64,000 nt of DNA, from the IMG/VR virus record IMGVR_UViG_3300042691_022450; one strand, 5' to 3'. The notes below the pieces were generated by a model. It was not told the origin of the DNA. It searched no databases and saw only the letters and a list, made by a program, of their open reading frames with translations. Position numbers and translations under genes: made by a program. Positions 32,882 through 43,399 of the stretch are shown in pieces. Within the stretch, counting starts at the first letter, position 1; the number at the start of each line of letters is the position of its first letter. The stretch is from a virus.

Positions 32882-33224
32882 GCGAGTATGGTGGAATCGG
32901 TAGACACACCAGACTTATGAAAATTGAGCCTCATTTGGGAAACCTTATGAGTGTAATTCCTCAAATTCGGTGAAACCTGTAAAATGGCAATACCGAGCGA
33001 AGTTGCAAGACAGTTGGAAAGACAACGGCTACCCAATGTGCTTCTAGAGAGGGTTGGAATTATCTAGAAAATGCAAAACGTGTAGAGACTAGACGGGGAA
33101 CACCTAAACTGAAAGGTATGGTGAAGGTATAGTCCAGACCACAAACCGAAAGGGTAGTGAAAACTATAGTGGTAAGAAAATCTGTTGGGCATTGCCCGTG
33201 GGAGTTCAAGTCTCCCTACTCGCA
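32882..33224 (+). tRNA. trnL: tRNA-Leu (TAA) split by a group I intron
   Basis: Exon 1 32882-32916 (...CCAGACTT), exon 2 33177-33224 (AAAATCTG...TACTCGCA). Confidence 0.9.
32917..33176 (+). ncRNA. Group I intron (260 nt, cyanobacterial/plastid trnL type)
   Basis: AATTGAGCC, CAAATTCGGTGAAACC, GTAGAGACT, GGTATAGTCC core elements; terminal G; inserted after U34. Confidence 0.9.
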
Positions 33225-33268
33225 CTTGCCCGAAAGGGCAAACACACATTATTTCAGTTATTAGTATT

Positions 33269-36091: not shown

Positions 36092-36182
36092 GGGAGAGTG
36101 GCTACTGTTGGCAATATGTGTAGCGGAAGTCTGTAAAACTTTTACATCGGAACCATCGGGGGTTCAATTCCCTCCTCTCTCA
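36092..36182 (+). tRNA. tRNA-Tyr (GTA)
   Basis: GAAGT-CTGTAAA-ACTTT; long D-loop. Confidence 0.8.
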
Positions 36183-37815: not shown

Positions 37816-37902
37816 GGAAGGTCAATCCGATTGGTGACGGAACCGCTCTTGAAAAGCGTTGAGGTGTTAAAGCCCTTGGGAGTTCGACTCTCCCACCTTC
37901 CG
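37816..37902 (+). tRNA. tRNA-Ser (TGA)
   Basis: CGCT-CTTGAAA-AGCG, long variable arm. Confidence 0.9.
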
Positions 37903-38181: not shown

Positions 38182-38255
38182 CGGGATGTAGCTCAACTTG
38201 GTAGAGTGCTTGATTTGGGTTCAAGATGTTGCAGGTTCAAATCCTGTCATCCCGA
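38182..38255 (+). tRNA. tRNA-Pro (TGG)
   Basis: CTTGA-TTTGGGT-TCAAG; C1:G72. Confidence 0.9.
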
Positions 38256-38611
38256 CTTGGAGAATCTAAATACCTCCAAACACTACAAAATCATTATGTC
38301 ACTGATTTCACAAAAAGACAGAACGATTGCCATTGAGGCACTAGACTTTTATCTATTCAATAAGAAATTTGATCTTACTGAAGAAAAAAGAATGGAACTT
38401 AATGCACTTCTGAATTGGATTAAAATCGAATACAATAAACATGAAAATTAATCTTTGGCACTGTAAAGAAATGAATCAATGGAGATGGACTTTATGTGAA
38501 GATTCTCGTCCAATTGTTAAACAAGAATCAGGTCAAAGAGAAAATTTACGAGATGCTATGAATGACGTAGTAAATACAGTTGAGTATTTAATGAATACTT
38601 GACATTCTTAT

Positions 38612-39419: not shown

Positions 39420-39492
39420 GGGGTCTTAGCTCAATTGGTAGAGCATTTGCTTTGCAAGCAAGAGGTTAGGGGTTCGAGTCCCCTAGATTCCA
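39420..39492 (+). tRNA. tRNA-Ala (TGC)
   Basis: G3:U70; TTGC-TTTGCAA-GCAA. Confidence 0.9.
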
Positions 39493-39494
39493 TT

Positions 39495-39740
39495 GTCCAA
39501 GAGGATAAGAAGTCTGATGTTTCGGACGGGGTTTCGATTACCCCCATCTCCATTACTTGGGGGTGCCAGGTTTCGACGGGGCATAAAGGTCTTATCTGTT
39601 GACGGGACAAGAAAACAAACGCAAACAAAATTGTTGCTTTCTCTCGTCAAACCGCATTGGTTTGAACTAAACGAGTGAGGGGGTTATAAGTTTCCTTCTT
39701 ACCCAAAACTTACAAGGAGGTGTAATGCCTCCTATTTTTG
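39495..39740 (+). ncRNA. ssrA: Permuted two-piece tmRNA (cyanobacterial type); outer ends approximate
   Basis: 3' module GACGGGGTTTCGATTACCCCCATCTCCA precedes 5' module GGGGGTGCCAGGTTTCGACGGGG; G3:U70; tag ANKIVAFSRQTALV* at 39621-39665. Confidence 0.85.
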
Positions 39741-39821
39741 TGCCTTGTGCCAATATAAGGACTGGCACAAGGCACTTGACATTCCGTCAAAACTTTGTTA
39801 TGATGAATAAGTACTCGATAA

Positions 39822-39880
39822 AAGATCAGGCAGCAATACAATACATTTTCCTTTCAAGAAAACCCATAAAAACTGATCTT
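39822..39880 (+). ncRNA. CAGCAA stem-loop RNA 1 (Glu anticodon-arm mimic)
   Basis: AAGATCAG-g-CAGCAA...TTTTC-CTTTCAA-GAAAA...CTGATCTT; TTGACA-17-TATGAT promoter at 39776-39804. Confidence 0.7.
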
Positions 39881-39886
39881 GTATTA

Positions 39887-39940
39887 AAGTTAATTCAGCA
39901 ACACAACTTTGAATCTGTAAACTCAAAACAACATTAACTT
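39887..39940 (+). ncRNA. CAGCAA stem-loop RNA 2 (Tyr anticodon-loop mimic)
   Basis: AAGTTAAT-t-CAGCAA...TTTGA-at-CTGTAAA-c-TCAAA...ATTAACTT. Confidence 0.7.
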
Positions 39941-39952
39941 GGAGAAAAAATT

Positions 39953-41419
39953 ATGACTTTCCTGACCGCACTTGAAACTGAACTGAACACCACTGAAACT
40001 CTCAATGGTGCCAAAGCATATAAATCTACTCTCAACAAATGTGTAGACCTGTTCGGTAAAATCTCTGCCTGTCGTAATGACATTCCACAGGCACGGAAAC
40101 TATTTGCTCACGCATATATGGAAGACCCTGAGACTGCGACTCGTATTCTCTTCAATGCCCGTGATATTCGTGGTGGGCAAGGAGAACGTGAAGTCTTCCG
40201 TAATCTATTCAAAGACCTTGTGAATGGGAATAGTGAAATTGCAACTAAACTTATTGAACTCATTCCTGTCTATGGTCGTTGGGATGACCTTCTAATTCTT
40301 GAAGGCACTGCTATCTGGGATAATGTTGTGGATGTTATCATCACGCAACTTGGTAAAGATGATGTTGCTCTGACCGCAGGGGAGAATGTTTCTCTGCTTG
40401 GTAAGTGGATGCCTTCTATCAATGCTTCTAGTGCTGATAGCAAACGTCTTGGTCGTGTGTTCGCAAAACGTCTTGAACTGAACGAACGTCAGTATCGTAA
40501 GTTCCTGACTGCTCTTCGTTTTCAAATTAAAATTGTGGAACAGAAGATGTGTTCCAAAGAATGGTCTGAGATTGACTACGAACATCTTCCTTCTCGTGCT
40601 GGATTTATGTATCGTAAGGCATTCGCAAAGCAGGATGCTACTCGTTACGCAGAATATTTGAGTGCCGTGGAGAAAGGTGATAAGAAAATCAATGCTGGAA
40701 CCATCTATCCTTATGAGATTGTAGATAAGTATCTCTACAAAGGTGGCAGTCAAGATAAGACTATTGACCTGATGTGGGAGGCACTGCCTAACTATATGGA
40801 AGGTCAAGAACTCAATGGTCTTGTGGTTGCCGATGTTTCTGGTAGTATGATGGGAACTCCAATGGCAGTTTCTATCTCTCTTGCGATGTATATTGCCGAA
40901 CGCAATACTGGTATTTGGAAAGATAAGTTCATCACTTTCTCTGAATCTCCTGAACTTCAATCCATCGTCGGTAATACTATCGGTGACCGTATTCGCAATC
41001 TTGCCAGTTCTTCTTGGGGATTCAATACTGACCTCAAAGCAGTATTTGAAAGTGTTCTGAATGCAGGAATCAAGAATAATGTTCCTGACGCAGAAATGCC
41101 TAAGAAACTTATCATTGTTTCTGATATGCAGTTTGACCAAGCGTGTAGTTCTAACAAACGCACCAACTTTGAGCAAATTCAGAAGATGTATCATAAGGCA
41201 GGATATGAGATGCCTGAACTTGTTTTCTGGAATGTGAATGCGATTGGGGGCAATGTTCCTATAACTATCCACGATACTGGAACTTGTCTGGTTTCAGGAT
41301 GTTCTCCTTCCATTCTGAAAAGTGTTCTGGGTGGTAAAACTATCACTCCTGTTGACGTGATGAAGGATGCGGTGTATGATGAACGTTATGCTCCTATCGG
41401 TGAGGCATTCAGTTCCTGA
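39953..41419 (+). CDS. DUF2828-family protein (Ro60/TROVE-like helical domain plus vWA)
   Basis: ARDIRGGQGERE, YGRWDDL, KWMPS, VADVSGSM (MIDAS), SDMQFD, FWNV, LVSGCSP. Confidence 0.8.
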   Translation: MTFLTALETELNTTETLNGAKAYKSTLNKCVDLFGKISACRNDIPQARKLFAHAYMEDPETATRILFNARDIRGGQGEREVFRNLFKDLVNGNSEIATKLIELIPVYGRWDDLLILEGTAIWDNVVDVIITQLGKDDVALTAGENVSLLGKWMPSINASSADSKRLGRVFAKRLELNERQYRKFLTALRFQIKIVEQKMCSKEWSEIDYEHLPSRAGFMYRKAFAKQDATRYAEYLSAVEKGDKKINAGTIYPYEIVDKYLYKGGSQDKTIDLMWEALPNYMEGQELNGLVVADVSGSMMGTPMAVSISLAMYIAERNTGIWKDKFITFSESPELQSIVGNTIGDRIRNLASSSWGFNTDLKAVFESVLNAGIKNNVPDAEMPKKLIIVSDMQFDQACSSNKRTNFEQIQKMYHKAGYEMPELVFWNVNAIGGNVPITIHDTGTCLVSGCSPSILKSVLGGKTITPVDVMKDAVYDERYAPIGEAFSS

Positions 41420-41614
41420 ACTGACACAAGGGGGGGGGGAGGTTGACAAAACTCCCCAACCTGTAATATAATAATTTTATAGATGGTTCAGCAATTTTAC
41501 CCATTTTATAGGAAAAACAACCATCTAGCAAACAAAGGTCTCTCAGCATTTCAATTTTCTCCAAACTCAAATCTGAGACTCTGAAAAACCTCAGTGAGAC
41601 CTTGAAAAAACAAA

Positions 41615-41734
41615 GGGAACGTGGTGTAACGGTAGCATTAACAAAATCGGTAATCTTGTATAAGATTCGGACAGCAATTTCTATTACTTTTTCTGTAAAA
41701 AAAAAAGGTTCAGGTTCGAGTCCTGACGTTTCCA
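41615..41734 (+). ncRNA. tRNA-like RNA with CAGCAA insert, GTA anticodon loop
   Basis: GGGAACG/CGTTTCC acceptor, D arm, insert with AATCTT-gtat-AAGATT, TTTTT-CTGTAAA-AAAAA, TCAGG-TTCGAGT-CCTGA. Confidence 0.7.
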
Positions 41735-41789
41735 TTAGATGATTCAGCAATTTACTGCTTGGTTATGCAAACAAAATCATCTAGTTTAA

Positions 41790-41902
41790 AGGAAGGTAGC
41801 TCAGTTGGTAGAGCAACGTAAAATATATCTTGCCAAAGATATTCACAGCAATTAAACTGCATTGGGGGCCGTTGGTCGCAAGTTCGAATCTTGCCCTTCC
41901 TA
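41790..41902 (+). ncRNA. tRNA-like RNA (TGG anticodon) with 40-nt insert in anticodon stem
   Basis: Removing 41819-41858 yields ACGGC-ATTGGGG-GCCGT and a full cloverleaf. Confidence 0.75.
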
Positions 41903-42050
41903 CTTATAGATAGTTCAGCAATTTACCCATTTTATAGGAAAAACAACTATCTAGAACAAATAAGAGATTATTCAGCAACTCCAAAGGATAACGGTTTATC
42001 AATAGGTAAACTTAGAGAGAATCGAATCTCTCAAATAATCTCGAAAATAC

Positions 42051-42164
42051 GGGGATGTAGCTCAGTTGGTAGAGCAACGTAAAATATATCTTGTCAAAGG
42101 ATATTCACAGCAATTAAATCGCATTCTAAGCCGTAAGTTACAGGTTCAAGTCCTGTCATCCCCT
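42051..42164 (+). ncRNA. tRNA-like RNA (TCT anticodon) with 41-nt insert in anticodon stem
   Basis: Removing 42080-42120 yields ACGGC-ATTCTAA-GCCGT and a full cloverleaf. Confidence 0.75.
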
Positions 42165-42166
42165 TC

Positions 42167-42284
42167 GAGAATGTAGCCCAAATGGCAGAGGCACCGTTTA
42201 TAAAAAAGTCATCTTGTTGTTAAGATGCGTCAGCATTAAATAAAAAGGCACGATCCAGTGTAGGTTCGAATCCTACCATTCTCA
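42167..42284 (+). ncRNA. Leu-type tRNA scaffold with CAGCAT module, no clear anticodon arm
   Basis: GAGAATG/CATTCTC acceptor, GTAGG-TTCGAAT-CCTAC T arm, CATCTT-gttgtt-AAGATG-cgt-CAGCAT. Confidence 0.65.
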
Positions 42285-42372
42285 TACACAAAGACCAGTT
42301 TTTAAACTGGTACATAATACTTCCAATGCTCCTTCAGACCTGCTATAATACACAGGTAATCAACGAAATCCA

Positions 42373-42552
42373 ATGAAACTTGTCGGTCTTGCTTTTGGTG
42401 TAATTGTCCTTGCTGTTGCTGGACTATTCTTTGAGGCATGGTTGCTTGGAGTGATTCTGTCTTGGTTTGGTGTGACACTGACATTCTGGCAGAACTTTGC
42501 CATTATCTTCCTTGCTAATGCTATTTTCAAATCTAACGTATCTTCCAAGTGA
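42373..42552 (+). CDS. Small membrane protein (59 aa)
   Basis: Hydrophobic ORF after promoter module, overlapping next start. Confidence 0.6.
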   Translation: MKLVGLAFGVIVLAVAGLFFEAWLLGVILSWFGVTLTFWQNFAIIFLANAIFKSNVSSK

Positions 42553-42859: not shown

Positions 42860-43399
42860 ATGACCGAAAACTACCCCGAGTTCGTTCCTTTTCCTAAGAT
42901 TCCCCGTCTTCATAAAGAATGTGTAGTTACTGAAAAGATTGATGGAACTAATGGTATTATCTACATCACTGACGATGGAGATATGTTTATCGGAAGTCGC
43001 AATCGTTGGTTGAGTGCAGAGTCTGACAATTTTGGGTTTCATCGTTGGGCATCTGAAAATCAAGATGAACTGATGAAACTTGGTGCTGGTCGTCATCACG
43101 GAGAATGGTGGGGTAGTGGTATTCAACGAGGTTATAATCTACCCAAAGGTGAGAAAAGGTTCTCCTTGTTTAATGTGAGTATCTGGAATTATGAAAACAA
43201 ACCAGAGTGTTGCTATGTTGTTCCTACTCTTTATACTGGAGAGTTTAGCACTAATGAACTTGATGATGCGATGGATAAACTTTGGGATTATGGTTCTGTT
43301 GCCTCTCCAGGGTTTATGAATCCAGAAGGTGTGATGATTTTCCATTCTGCTGCGAATCATTATTTCAAGGCACCTTTTGATAAAAATCATAAGGGTTGA
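42860..43399 (+). CDS. RNA ligase (Rnl2-like nucleotidyltransferase domain)
   Basis: Motif I TEKIDGTNG, GSRNR, GEWWG, FSLFN, PEGVMI, FK. Confidence 0.8.
   Translation: MTENYPEFVPFPKIPRLHKECVVTEKIDGTNGIIYITDDGDMFIGSRNRWLSAESDNFGFHRWASENQDELMKLGAGRHHGEWWGSGIQRGYNLPKGEKRFSLFNVSIWNYENKPECCYVVPTLYTGEFSTNELDDAMDKLWDYGSVASPGFMNPEGVMIFHSAANHYFKAPFDKNHKG

What the first reader, a model, noticed from the sequence alone, without database searches (positions are those of the whole stretch)
41615..42284. tRNA genes carrying the CAGCAA module as a circularly permuted insert in or beside the anticodon stem
Seen: deleting 41819-41858 (40 nt) or 42080-42120 (41 nt) restores complete cloverleafs with stem ACG|GC...GCCGT and anticodons TGG and TCT, so both inserts sit at position 29/30. 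Two further scaffolds (41615, 42167) carry a related insert. Each insert is A-rich linker, ATCTT-loop-AAG(G)AT, 3-4 nt, CAGCA. This is the stand-alone hairpin with its strands swapped and capped by a short loop, keeping the geometry relative to the anticodon loop. Identity elements do not fit the anticodons (A1:U72 on the TGG body, U73 on the TCT body, A32 in both). Inference: these are either tRNA-mimic RNAs with a protein handle, or a new protein-spliced tRNA intron type. The TCT one would be the only source of tRNA-Arg in the window.
Basis: partly seen in the sequence, partly recalled or inferred. Interest (0 to 1): 0.85.

Follow-up and report, generated by a model that had tools for sequence, protein, structure and literature searches.

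The report
tRNA-shaped partner RNAs of Ro60-like protein
Four tRNA-shaped RNA genes in this cyanophage carry a conserved folded "handle" in the anticodon arm and are most likely partner RNAs (Y-RNA analogues) of the neighbouring Ro60-like DUF2828 protein, not tRNAs with a new kind of intron.

Summary
Four tRNA-like genes lie at 41615-41734, 41790-41902, 42051-42164 and 42167-42284. Each has a roughly 40-nt module in the anticodon arm: an A-rich linker, a 6-8 bp covarying hairpin, a 3-4 nt spacer, then CAGCAAU. Virtual excision of 41819-41858 or 42080-42120 yields ARAGORN-callable tRNA-Pro(UGG) and tRNA-Arg(UCU).

I read them as tRNA mimics, not intron-bearing tRNAs.
- The upstream DUF2828/DUF7788 protein folds as Ro60 (Z 23.7, 413 residues aligned).
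- The same helix-plus-CAGCAA handle flanks DUF2828 genes in cyanophages, T4-like Aeromonas phage, a Felixounavirus, a Listeria phage and a mycobacteriophage. It occurs as stand-alone hairpins, as permuted YrlA-style tRNA mimics, and here as unpermuted tRNA scaffolds.
- Between near-identical phages the handle is invariant while the tRNA body or the "anticodon" changes.
- Some members have no anticodon loop.
- No splicing endonuclease was found.

Protein-RNA binding is inferred, not shown. The handle closely matches the conserved motif of Dictyostelium Class I RNAs. I found the family neither in Rfam above threshold nor in the papers searched. This scan has flagged the same DUF2828/CAGCAA pairing before on other DNA (277 notes). 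What is new here is the unpermuted, anticodon-displaying tRNA form.

The parts
39776..39804 (+). Sigma-70-type promoter-like site ahead of the two leader RNA modules and the DUF2828 gene
   Evidence: TTGACA-17-TATGAT with TG, 11 of 12 matches
39822..39880 (+). Stand-alone handle RNA: 8-bp closing stem, with CAGCAAU at 39831 just 3' of the 5' strand
   Evidence: The same position upstream of the gene recurs in relatives at about 3880 of L005-L015.
39887..39940 (+). Stand-alone handle RNA; CAGCAA at 39896
39953..41419 (+). DUF2828/DUF7788 protein, 488 aa: Ro60-fold ring plus vWA domain with a MIDAS motif
   Evidence: Pfam PF11443 and PF25043. AF2 model pLDDT 92.6. Ro60 1yvr Z 23.7, 413 residues aligned, rmsd 3.7. 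Foldseek E 1e-7. D294-x-S296-x-S298 and D391 invariant, T359 at least 90% conserved.
41443..41472 (+). Consensus sigma-70-type promoter ahead of the RNA array
   Evidence: TTGACA-18-TATAAT, 12 of 12 matches
41480..41527 (+). Stand-alone handle RNA; CAGCAAU at 41489
41535..41603 (+). Stand-alone handle RNA; CAGCAU at 41544
41615..41734 (+). tRNA-like RNA 1 (body class B). Handle hairpin 41652-41667, CAGCAAU 41672-41678. An intact anticodon-like hairpin follows: UUUUU 41688-41692, CUGUAAA 41693-41699, AAAAA 41700-41704.
   Evidence: Rfam tRNA 37.1 bits; R1 36.2 bits
41736..41785 (+). Stand-alone handle RNA; CAGCAAU at 41745
41790..41902 (+). tRNA-like RNA 2 (body class A, A1:U72). Insert 41819-41858 at position 29/30. 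Hairpin 41825-41842, CAGCAAU 41846-41852, anticodon-like loop AUUGGGG 41861-41867.
   Evidence: Rfam tRNA 52.4 bits; R1 127.7 bits; tRNA-Pro(tgg) after virtual excision
41907..41953 (+). Stand-alone handle RNA; CAGCAAU at 41916
41964..42042 (+). Larger stand-alone handle RNA with three internal hairpins; CAGCAA at 41973
42051..42164 (+). tRNA-like RNA 3 (body class A, U73). Insert 42080-42120 at position 29/30. Hairpin 42086-42104, CAGCAAU 42108-42114, anticodon-like loop AUUCUAA 42123-42129.
   Evidence: Rfam tRNA 53.3 bits; R1 130.5 bits; tRNA-Arg(tct) after virtual excision
42167..42284 (+). tRNA-like RNA 4 (body class C). Handle hairpin 42210-42227, CAGCAUU 42231-42237. No anticodon-like 7-nt loop remains.
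   Evidence: Rfam tRNA 35.7 bits; R1 41.1 bits. The module is identical in L006:7604 on a different tRNA body.

Best explanation
The four genes encode stable tRNA-shaped non-coding RNAs that act as Y-RNA analogues. Each is a tRNA scaffold (acceptor, D and T arms with their tertiary-contact nucleotides) whose anticodon arm carries a protein-binding handle. The handle is a 6-8 bp helix followed, about 10 nt from the start of the helix strand, by single-stranded CAGCAAU.

The handle is the proposed docking site for the Ro60-fold ring protein encoded just upstream (DUF2828/DUF7788, 39953-41419). Seven stand-alone hairpin RNAs around that gene carry the same handle with the helix strands connected the other way round. 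The array is transcribed from host-type promoters at 39776 and 41443. The tRNA-like units are presumably cut out by RNase P and the tRNA 3'-end processing enzymes, because their ends lie in a normal acceptor stem.

By analogy with Ro60/Rsr and Y RNAs, the RNAs would gate or tether the ring protein to other factors. The tRNA body and the retained anticodon-like loop (U33, R37) would supply contacts with tRNA-recognising proteins.

Shown: the RNA anatomy and covariation, the protein fold, and the genomic association. Inferred: binding, processing, and any role in RNA surveillance, repair or tRNA-centred phage-host conflict.
For: 1. Protein fold. The AF2 model (pLDDT 92.6) matches Ro60 over its full length. 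The best match is 1yvr at Z 23.7 with 413 residues aligned. Phage phiLo Ro60 gives Z 13-14. The next rows, isolated vWA domains, reach Z 10-11. Foldseek gives E 1e-7. The MIDAS residues are invariant or nearly so.

2. Protein to RNA. A covariance model finds about 40 insert-bearing tRNA-likes directly beside the DUF2828 gene, same strand, in 19 of about 30 distinct viral loci.

3. Genome-level co-occurrence. All four phage genomes with a blastn-detectable homologue (B3, BUCT-ZZ01, Aeromonas Ahp1, huge phage LR756501) encode DUF2828. In LR756501 the two genes are 133 kb apart.

4. RNA to protein. A 15-mer from the RNA's 5' half gave 27 tRNA-context hits in IMG/VR. 12 of these lie in loci that also encode DUF2828. 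Of 5 further contigs searched whole, 4 have it elsewhere on the contig. Only 709 of 50,697 phage records have the protein at all.

5. The handle outside tRNA. Helix + N2-4 + CAGCAA RNAs lie next to DUF2828 genes in mycobacteriophage Itos, Felixounavirus VpaE1, Listeria phage LMTA-148 and others. These include permuted YrlA-style tRNA mimics. CAGCAA occurs at 1.54 per kb on the gene strand within 1.3 kb of the gene, against 0.39-0.65 per kb elsewhere.

6. Structure. All 6 hairpin pairs covary and 94% of cells pair. There are 21 distinct stems among 34 sequences. The distance from helix-strand start to CAGCAA is 9-10 nt in both topologies.

7. The handle is the constrained part. Between the window and L006 (95% protein identity), the module of 42167 is identical apart from one lost A in the linker. 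Its tRNA body meanwhile changes class. The 'anticodon' of 41790 changes UGG to UGU, and that of 41615 changes GUA to CCA, on otherwise near-identical RNAs.

8. Precedent. Bacterial and phage Ro60 proteins bind adjacent tRNA-like Y RNAs (PMC4201824, PMC12135203).
Against: No experiment or computation here shows that the protein binds these RNAs, or that the RNAs are stable.

The protein has no sequence-level TROVE match.

The YrlA recognition motif GNCGAAN0-1G is absent from the RNAs. Rfam YrlA scores only 25 bits against a threshold of 69, and that hit spans two adjacent tRNA-likes, which is a known dimeric-tRNA artefact (PMC4201824).

Class-A members give a flawless cloverleaf with U33 and R37 after excision. 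That is what an intron model predicts, and the window has no other tRNA-Arg.

Several more distant DUF2828 loci (L025-L028, L030, L036) showed no handle in their flanks.
Confidence: 0.65

Rival explanations
1. Intron-containing tRNA genes. The 40-41 nt module is cut out by a protein (the DUF2828 protein or a host enzyme) and the halves are sealed by an RNA ligase. This would give decoding tRNA-Pro(UGG) and tRNA-Arg(UCU), and the handle would only mark the intron.
For: Exact excision restores canonical cloverleafs with a 5-bp anticodon stem, U33 and R37. All 13 class-A members keep GC-N7-GC plus GCCGU. The window has no other tRNA-Arg or tRNA-Asn. An RNA-ligase-family gene lies 600 bp downstream.
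Against: The module is more conserved than the 'exons'. It also occurs in stand-alone hairpins and in permuted tRNA mimics that have no exons to join.

Its position differs between body classes, and 42167-type members have no anticodon loop to restore.

The anticodon switches Pro to Thr and Tyr to Trp between near-identical orthologues without any change of body. A1:U72 and U73 do not fit Pro or Arg identity.

The UGG and GUU copies are redundant with canonical tRNA-Pro in the window and tRNA-Asn in Ahp1.

Four complete genomes have no EndA-type endonuclease. The ligase is not found within the about 4-kb flanks of the relatives' DUF2828 genes.
Confidence: 0.1
2. Anticodon-loop decoys or baits. 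This is a specific version of the RNP model. The tRNA-shaped RNAs display authentic-looking anticodon loops to host tRNA-targeting enzymes (anticodon nucleases of defence systems, or modification enzymes). The Ro60-like ring holds, shields or hands the RNAs on for repair, which protects the phage's translation.
For: The anticodon-like loops keep U33 and R37 while the triplet changes quickly between close relatives: UGG/UGU, GUA/CCA. Across the family the triplets include UCU, UCG, GUU, UUU, CAU and GCC.

The locus sits inside a large phage tRNA array. In Listeria phage LMTA-148 the DUF2828 gene lies near RtcB and a phosphohydrolase.

Phage tRNAs are known counter-measures to tRNA-cleaving defences (PMC11464382, PMC11555353).
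Against: This is entirely inferential. Some members lack any anticodon-like loop. In class A the loop is closed by only 2 bp next to a three-way junction, so its mimicry of a real anticodon arm is uncertain. No nuclease target is identified.
Confidence: 0.15
3. Decayed tRNA pseudogenes. A repeated hairpin element (the stand-alone CAGCAA unit) has inserted into tRNA genes, and the products have no function.
For: GenBank annotators call the homologues 'tRNA-Pseudo'. The same unit is repeated 11 times in 2.5 kb.
Against: Homologues persist in cyanophages, an Aeromonas T4-like phage and a 735-kb phage. They keep intact acceptor, D and T arms, compensatory changes in every helix, and the same insertion point. 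The array has its own consensus promoter.
Confidence: 0.05

Closest known systems
Bacterial and phage Ro60 (Rsr) with YrlA-type Y RNAs (Chen et al. 2014, PMC4201824; Rfam RF02553; Thermus phage phiLo Ro60 with Yrl1/Yrl2, PMC12135203)
   Same: A ring-shaped Ro60-fold protein with a vWA domain is encoded next to, and on the same strand as, several small RNAs. At least one RNA per locus mimics tRNA through its D and T arms and tertiary-contact nucleotides. A helix with an adjacent conserved single-stranded motif is the presumed protein-binding site.
   Different: The protein belongs to DUF2828/DUF7788 and has no sequence-level TROVE match. The conserved RNA motif is CAGCAAU, not GNCGAAN0-1G. The tRNA mimic here is not permuted: its ends lie in an open acceptor stem, the handle helix is capped by a small loop, and an anticodon-like loop is often retained. 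The Rfam YrlA score is 25 bits against a threshold of 69.
Dictyostelium Class I RNAs (Rfam RF01414; Kjellin et al. 2021, PMC7919456)
   Same: A short covarying stem is followed directly by a conserved unpaired motif, then a variable region. The Rfam consensus CUUACAGCAAUUAAA matches ACAGCAAUUAAA of 42106-42117 letter for letter. The stand-alone units of the window have the same overall plan.
   Different: These are eukaryotic RNAs thought to be unique to dictyostelids, and the known binder is an RRM protein. Scores here are below threshold: 21.8 and 13.2 bits against 41.5. In the tRNA-embedded form the stem does not join the RNA's ends. Whether the resemblance reflects homology was not tested here.
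Protein-spliced tRNA introns of archaea and eukaryotes, including non-canonical positions such as 29/30
   Same: An insert in the anticodon stem whose exact removal restores a canonical cloverleaf.
   Different: No splicing endonuclease gene was found in four phage genomes. The insert sequence is conserved more strongly than the tRNA body. The insert exists outside tRNA contexts. No bulge-helix-bulge appeared in the folds.

Membership tests
tRNA (Rfam RF00005) | Cloverleaf with acceptor, D and T arms, scoring above the family's gathering score | tested here: met
   52.4, 53.3, 37.1 and 35.7 bits against a threshold of 29
tRNA (Rfam RF00005) | Contiguous 5-bp anticodon stem with a 7-nt loop in the gene as encoded | tested here: not met
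   A 51-61 nt insertion lies in the anticodon arm. ARAGORN calls none of the four natively, and calls two only after virtual excision. 42167 has no 7-nt-loop hairpin.
tRNA (Rfam RF00005) | Body and identity elements match the anticodon and are stable between orthologues | tested here: not met
   A1:U72 goes with UGG and U73 with UCU. UGG changes to UGU, and GUA to CCA, between near-identical orthologues.
tRNA (Rfam RF00005) | Aminoacylation and use in decoding | not testable with these tools
   Needs acid-urea northern blots or tRNA-seq
YrlA / bacterial Y RNA (Rfam RF02553) | Reaches the Rfam gathering score | tested here: not met
   25 bits against 69. The hit spans the 3' half of one tRNA-like and the 5' half of the next.
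YrlA / bacterial Y RNA (Rfam RF02553) | Encoded beside a Ro60-type protein gene, on the same strand | tested here: met
   The array starts 60 nt after a Ro60-fold gene. The arrangement recurs in 19 loci.
YrlA / bacterial Y RNA (Rfam RF02553) | tRNA-like D and T arms | tested here: met
YrlA / bacterial Y RNA (Rfam RF02553) | Termini in the protein-binding stem with a closed 'acceptor' stem-loop (permuted order) | tested here: not met
   The order is that of a normal tRNA with an open acceptor stem. The permuted form does occur beside DUF2828 in Felixounavirus VpaE1 and mycobacteriophage Itos.
YrlA / bacterial Y RNA (Rfam RF02553) | GNCGAAN0-1G motif near the 5' end | tested here: not met
   The only occurrence in 39700-42400 lies inside the protein-coding gene, at 40895.
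Ro60 / TROVE proteins | HEAT-repeat ring followed by a vWA domain (overall fold) | tested here: met
   Z 23.7, rmsd 3.7 and 413 of 488 residues aligned to 1yvr. Six Ro60 entries score Z 18-24, and the unrelated rows reach 11 or less.
Ro60 / TROVE proteins | MIDAS motif in the vWA domain | tested here: met
   D294, S296, S298 and D391 are invariant and T359 is at least 90% conserved in 74 sequences.
Ro60 / TROVE proteins | Sequence match to Pfam TROVE or to solved Ro60 chains | tested here: not met
   Only PF11443 and PF25043 match at E up to 10. phmmer and a profile search of PDB sequences find no Ro60.
Ro60 / TROVE proteins | Binds Y RNA on the outer ring surface | not testable with these tools
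   No RNA-protein prediction was available; needs EMSA, CLIP or cryo-EM
Dictyostelium Class I RNA (Rfam RF01414) | Reaches the Rfam gathering score | tested here: not met
   21.8 bits (42099-42155) and 13.2 bits (41489-41523) against 41.5
Dictyostelium Class I RNA (Rfam RF01414) | Conserved 11-nt motif directly 3' of a short covarying stem strand | tested here: met
   ACAGCAAUUAAA is identical to the consensus. The stem covaries.
Dictyostelium Class I RNA (Rfam RF01414) | The stem joins the 5' and 3' ends of a ~60-nt RNA | tested here: not met
   In the four tRNA-likes the stem is a local capped hairpin. The seven stand-alone units of the window do have this plan.
Protein-spliced tRNA intron (bulge-helix-bulge type) | A splicing endonuclease (EndA family) is available | tested here: not met
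   PF01974 is absent from four complete phage genomes that carry such RNAs, while the archaeal controls were positive. Host genomes were not searched.
Protein-spliced tRNA intron (bulge-helix-bulge type) | Bulge-helix-bulge at the exon-intron junctions | tested here: inconclusive
   The A-rich segments at both junctions are unpaired in MFE folds. No dedicated BHB search was run.

The most novel reading that the evidence does not exclude
DUF2828 proteins and helix-CAGCAAU RNAs form a second, undescribed branch of the Ro60/Y-RNA world that spans phages of cyanobacteria, proteobacteria, firmicutes and actinobacteria, and possibly the Class I RNAs of social amoebae. Within it, these cyanophage RNAs would be full-length tRNA mimics that present fast-evolving anticodon loops on a Ro60-like ring, as decoys, sensors or repair substrates in the conflict over tRNA cleavage between phage and host.
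Probability: 0.3. Interest if true: 0.85.

Novelty: new variant of a known kind. Interest (0 to 1): 0.7.

Why it matters
Ro60 and its Y RNAs are a conserved but poorly understood RNA-surveillance particle. Bacterial Y RNAs that mimic tRNA are its best mechanistic clue.

This locus shows a sequence-divergent Ro60-fold family, present in 709 of 50,697 phage records. It has its own RNA handle and three interchangeable RNA topologies. One of these is a complete, unpermuted tRNA shape that keeps an anticodon-like loop.

That gives a defined, short and mutable binding element (helix plus CAGCAAU) to test. It would explain a class of 'tRNA-Pseudo' annotations in large phage genomes. It also links the particle physically to phage tRNA arrays, where current work on anti-defence tRNAs is concentrated. 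The near-identity of the handle to the Dictyostelium Class I RNA motif offers a testable lead to the unknown function of those RNAs.

Tried and rejected
1. The YrlA hit at 42112-42221 (25 bits) is rejected as evidence of membership. It joins the 3' half of one tRNA-like to the 5' half of the next, an artefact that Chen et al. describe for dimeric tRNAs.

2. A link to the RNA ligase at 42860-43399 was tested by tblastn against the relatives' loci (about 4 kb either side of the DUF2828 gene). No homologue was found, so it is dropped as a conserved partner.

3. Sequence-level homology of the protein to Ro60/TROVE was sought with Pfam at E up to 10 and with phmmer and a profile search of PDB sequences. 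None was found; only the fold matches.

4. Conserved pairing between the two A-rich linkers (a pseudoknot or a BHB-like helix) was not found by inspection of six homologues or in the folds.

5. The whole genome of the window is not held, so the full tRNA repertoire could not be checked.

6. The 15-mer scan of IMG/VR returned mostly coding matches. Only the 27 with a D-arm context were used.

7. An automatic search for 7-nt-loop hairpins mis-picked alternative hairpins in several class-A members. Class-A loops were therefore read from the alignment.

8. The Atlas look-up gave only DUF2828 clusters from viruses and added nothing on eukaryotic relatives.

9. Literature searches for DUF2828, Ro-like phage proteins, YrlA in phages and cyanophage Ro60 found no description of these RNAs.
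Full report
**What is there.** The window is part of a T4-like cyanophage genome. It holds 24 ARAGORN-called tRNAs, a cyanobacterial-type permuted tmRNA and a group I intron. In 41615-42284, Rfam's tRNA model matches four stretches of 113-120 nt: 41615-41734, 41790-41902, 42051-42164 and 42167-42284. Scores are 35.7-53.3 bits against a threshold of 29. Acceptor, D and T arms align fully, and 51-61 nt are looped out of the anticodon arm. ARAGORN does not call them as they stand.

The anticodon stem is then ACG|GC / GCCGU. The inserts have the stated plan: UAAAAU, a 7-bp hairpin, UCA, then CAGCAAUUAAA.

One qualification applies. The 29/30 position holds only for these two 'class A' bodies. In 41615 the module lies between the D arm and a complete anticodon-like hairpin (UUUUU-CUGUAAA-AAAAA). 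In 42167 the module fills the loop of the anticodon stem and no anticodon-like loop is left.

**It is a conserved, structured RNA family.** blastn found homologues that include the insert in Synechococcus phages B3/B23 and BUCT-ZZ01, in Aeromonas phage Ahp1 (Straboviridae) and in a 735-kb uncultured phage. Where annotated, they are labelled 'tRNA-Pseudo'. A covariance model built from five of them found about 40 insert-bearing tRNA-likes of 110-123 nt in 19 viral loci. Nearly all lie directly downstream of one particular gene, on the same strand.

In the model-based alignment, all six pairs of the insert hairpin show changes on both sides and 94% of cells pair. The acceptor, D, T and split anticodon helices covary too. 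A per-sequence search found 21 different stem sequences among 34 RNAs. The spacer adjusts so that CAGCAA starts 10 ± 1 nt after the first base of the 3' helix strand. The invariant letters are C-N-G-C-A within (A/U)C(A/U)GCAA(U).

**The neighbouring gene is a Ro60-fold protein.** ORF 39953-41419 matches only Pfam DUF2828 and DUF7788 and has no sequence match in the PDB. An AlphaFold model from a 74-sequence alignment has pLDDT 92.6. Its best structural matches, over the whole length, are all Ro60:
- Xenopus Ro60 1yvr: Z 23.7, 413 residues aligned, rmsd 3.7.
- Human Ro60 complexes: Z 18-21.
- Thermus phage phiLo Ro60: Z 13-14.
- Next best, isolated vWA domains: Z 10-11.

The vWA MIDAS residues D-x-S-x-S and D are invariant, and the MIDAS T is at least 90% conserved. 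Some phage records already annotate homologues as 'Ro-like RNA binding protein'. So the fold assignment is not new, but no partner RNA is described in the papers I could search.

**The handle travels with the protein.**
- *Protein to RNA.* Besides the 19 loci above, the flanks of DUF2828 genes in distant phages hold RNAs with a 7-9 bp closing helix followed by UAA/UA and CAGCAA(U). Mycobacteriophage Itos has three downstream. Felixounavirus VpaE1 has four downstream. Listeria phage LMTA-148 has three upstream. IMG/VR loci L033 and L035 have them too.
- *Motif density.* Across 28 loci, CAGCAA occurs at 1.54 per kb on the gene strand within 1.3 kb of the gene. Elsewhere or on the other strand it occurs at 0.39-0.65 per kb.
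- *Genome-level co-occurrence.* All four phage genomes with the tRNA-like RNA encode the protein. In LR756501 the two are 133 kb apart, so the association does not depend on adjacency.
- *RNA to protein.* A 15-mer from the 5' half gave 27 IMG/VR hits in a D-arm context. 12 of these lie in loci that also encode DUF2828. Of five further contigs searched whole, four had it elsewhere.
- *Background.* 709 of 50,697 phage records have the protein.

**Three topologies of one design.** In the window, seven stand-alone units flank the gene: 39822-39880, 39887-39940, 41480-41527, 41535-41603, 41736-41785, 41907-41953 and 41964-42042. In these, CAGCAA follows the 5' strand of a helix whose 3' strand closes the RNA.

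In VpaE1 (L042 4859-4983) and Itos (L041 3979-4100) the same closing helix and ACAGCAA(U) enclose a fuller structure. In order it holds an anticodon-like hairpin, a T arm, a closed acceptor stem-loop and a D arm. This is the permuted order of YrlA-type Y RNAs.

The cyanophage tRNA-likes are the circular permutation of that RNA. The acceptor stem is open, and the handle helix is capped by a 3-5 nt loop. Connectivity and spacing are preserved: D arm, A-rich linker, one helix strand; then the other helix strand, spacer, CAGCAA, anticodon-like hairpin, T arm. The distance from helix-strand start to CAGCAA is 9 nt in the stand-alone units and 10 nt in the embedded ones.

**Why not an intron.**
1. 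Comparison with the closest relative, L006 (95% protein identity), shows the opposite of intron behaviour. The module of 42167 is identical in L006:7604 apart from one lost A in the linker. Meanwhile the flanking tRNA body has changed class, with different acceptor, D and T stems.
2. Between 41790 and its orthologues in L006 and L007, three adjacent changes turn the loop AUUGGGG into AUUGUAA on the same A1:U72 body. The orthologue of 41615 has CUCCAAA instead of CUGUAAA. A decoding tRNA would not switch Pro to Thr, or Tyr to Trp, without changing its identity elements.
3. Several members have no anticodon-like loop at all.
4. The handle exists without exons in the stand-alone and permuted forms.
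5. The UGG copy is redundant with the canonical tRNA-Pro(UGG) at 38182-38256. Ahp1's GUU copy is redundant with an annotated tRNA-Asn.
6. EndA-type endonuclease (PF01974) is absent from four complete genomes with such RNAs. The ligase at 42860 has no homologue in the flanks of the relatives' DUF2828 genes.

What still speaks for the intron model is the perfect cloverleaf after excision in class A. U33 and R37 are kept in all 13 class-A loops, and the window lacks tRNA-Arg. I put that model at about 0.1.

**Most likely mechanism.**
- *Shown:* the anatomy, the covariation, the protein fold and the association.
- *Inferred by analogy with Ro60/Rsr and Y RNAs (PMC4201824, PMC12135203):* the ring protein binds the helix-plus-CAGCAAU handle. 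The RNAs gate or tether the ring. The tRNA body makes the RNA a substrate or ligand for tRNA-recognising proteins.
- *Transcription:* consensus host-type promoters at 39776-39804 and 41443-41472 suggest early transcription of the gene and the array.
- *Processing:* because the ends lie in a normal acceptor stem, and units 3 and 4 are 2 nt apart, release by RNase P and tRNA 3'-end enzymes is the natural expectation. This is inferred.
- *Anticodon-like loops:* their canonical format combined with rapid triplet turnover suggests the loop itself is presented to something, such as anticodon nucleases, modification enzymes or synthetases. This decoy or bait idea is speculative and is scored separately.

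**Comparison with known families.** As a system it works like Ro60/Y RNA. It fails YrlA membership on score (25 against 69 bits), on the GNCGAAN0-1G motif and on topology. The protein fails TROVE membership at the sequence level.

The handle is nearly identical to the conserved motif of Dictyostelium Class I RNAs. The Rfam consensus is CUUACAGCAAUUAAA and the window has ACAGCAAUUAAA. The scores of 21.8 and 13.2 bits are below the 41.5 threshold. PMC7919456 describes those RNAs as a 6-bp terminal stem plus an 11-nt unpaired motif, thought unique to dictyostelids. I took this lead from earlier notes of this scan and checked only the motif match, not homology.

**Novelty and standing.** Nothing in Rfam 15 reaches threshold on these RNAs except tRNA. 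I found no paper describing RNAs associated with DUF2828. This scan has already reported the DUF2828/CAGCAA pairing on other DNA (277 notes, several followed up), so the RNP family itself is a repeat finding within the scan.

This locus adds three things:
- the unpermuted, acceptor-open tRNA form, with the handle set in the anticodon arm;
- its relation by circular permutation to YrlA-style mimics;
- orthologue comparisons showing that the handle is constrained while the scaffold and 'anticodon' turn over.

I class it as a new variant of a known kind, with interest 0.7.

Noticed in passing
window 32882-33225: A phage-encoded tRNA-Leu(UAA) gene is split in the anticodon loop by a group I intron (Rfam Intron_gpI 32907-33158, 58.8 bits). 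The exon halves are readable on either side. This is the classic cyanobacterial arrangement, here in a phage.
   Followed up: partly
window 39480-39731: A phage-encoded permuted (two-piece) cyanobacterial-type tmRNA (RF01851, 115 bits) lies directly upstream of the DUF2828 locus. ARAGORN gives the tag as ANKIVAFSRQTALV.
   Followed up: no
window 36092-36182: A probable tRNA-Tyr(GUA) with a long variable arm. ARAGORN missed it and Rfam did not report it at its gathering score. My model R1 gave 20 bits.
   Followed up: partly
window 42860-43399: A 179-aa RNA-ligase-family protein (PF09414, E 1.4e-12) lies 600 bp after the RNA array. No homologue lies within the about 4-kb flanks of the relatives' DUF2828 genes, so a functional link is unsupported.
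   Followed up: partly
L044 (Listeria phage LMTA-148) 912-1463 and 4560-6449: A ROOL RNA match (90 bits, just under the 99.1 threshold) lies upstream of the DUF2828 gene. A metal-dependent phosphohydrolase and two RtcB ('tRNA splicing ligase') genes lie downstream, an Rsr-RtcB-like neighbourhood.
   Followed up: no
L055 3716-3850, L081, L107, L098 (IMG/VR contigs): A tRNA 5' half identical to class A (acceptor, D arm, ACG, UAAAA) is followed not by a handle and a 3' half but by a promoter-like TTGACA...TATAAT sequence. These may be split or truncated relatives of the tRNA-like RNAs.
   Followed up: no
L095 2627-2760, L101, L103 (IMG/VR contigs): These are further variants beside DUF2828 genes. 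A class-A 5' half and handle are followed by a full 5-bp anticodon-like hairpin (for example UUCGA-CUGCUAA-UCGAA), but no obvious T arm comes directly after it.
   Followed up: no
window 37816-37901: An Rfam tRNA-Sec match (49.4 bits against a threshold of 47) coincides with ARAGORN's tRNA-Ser(UGA). It is most likely a long-arm tRNA-Ser, not tRNA-Sec.
   Followed up: no
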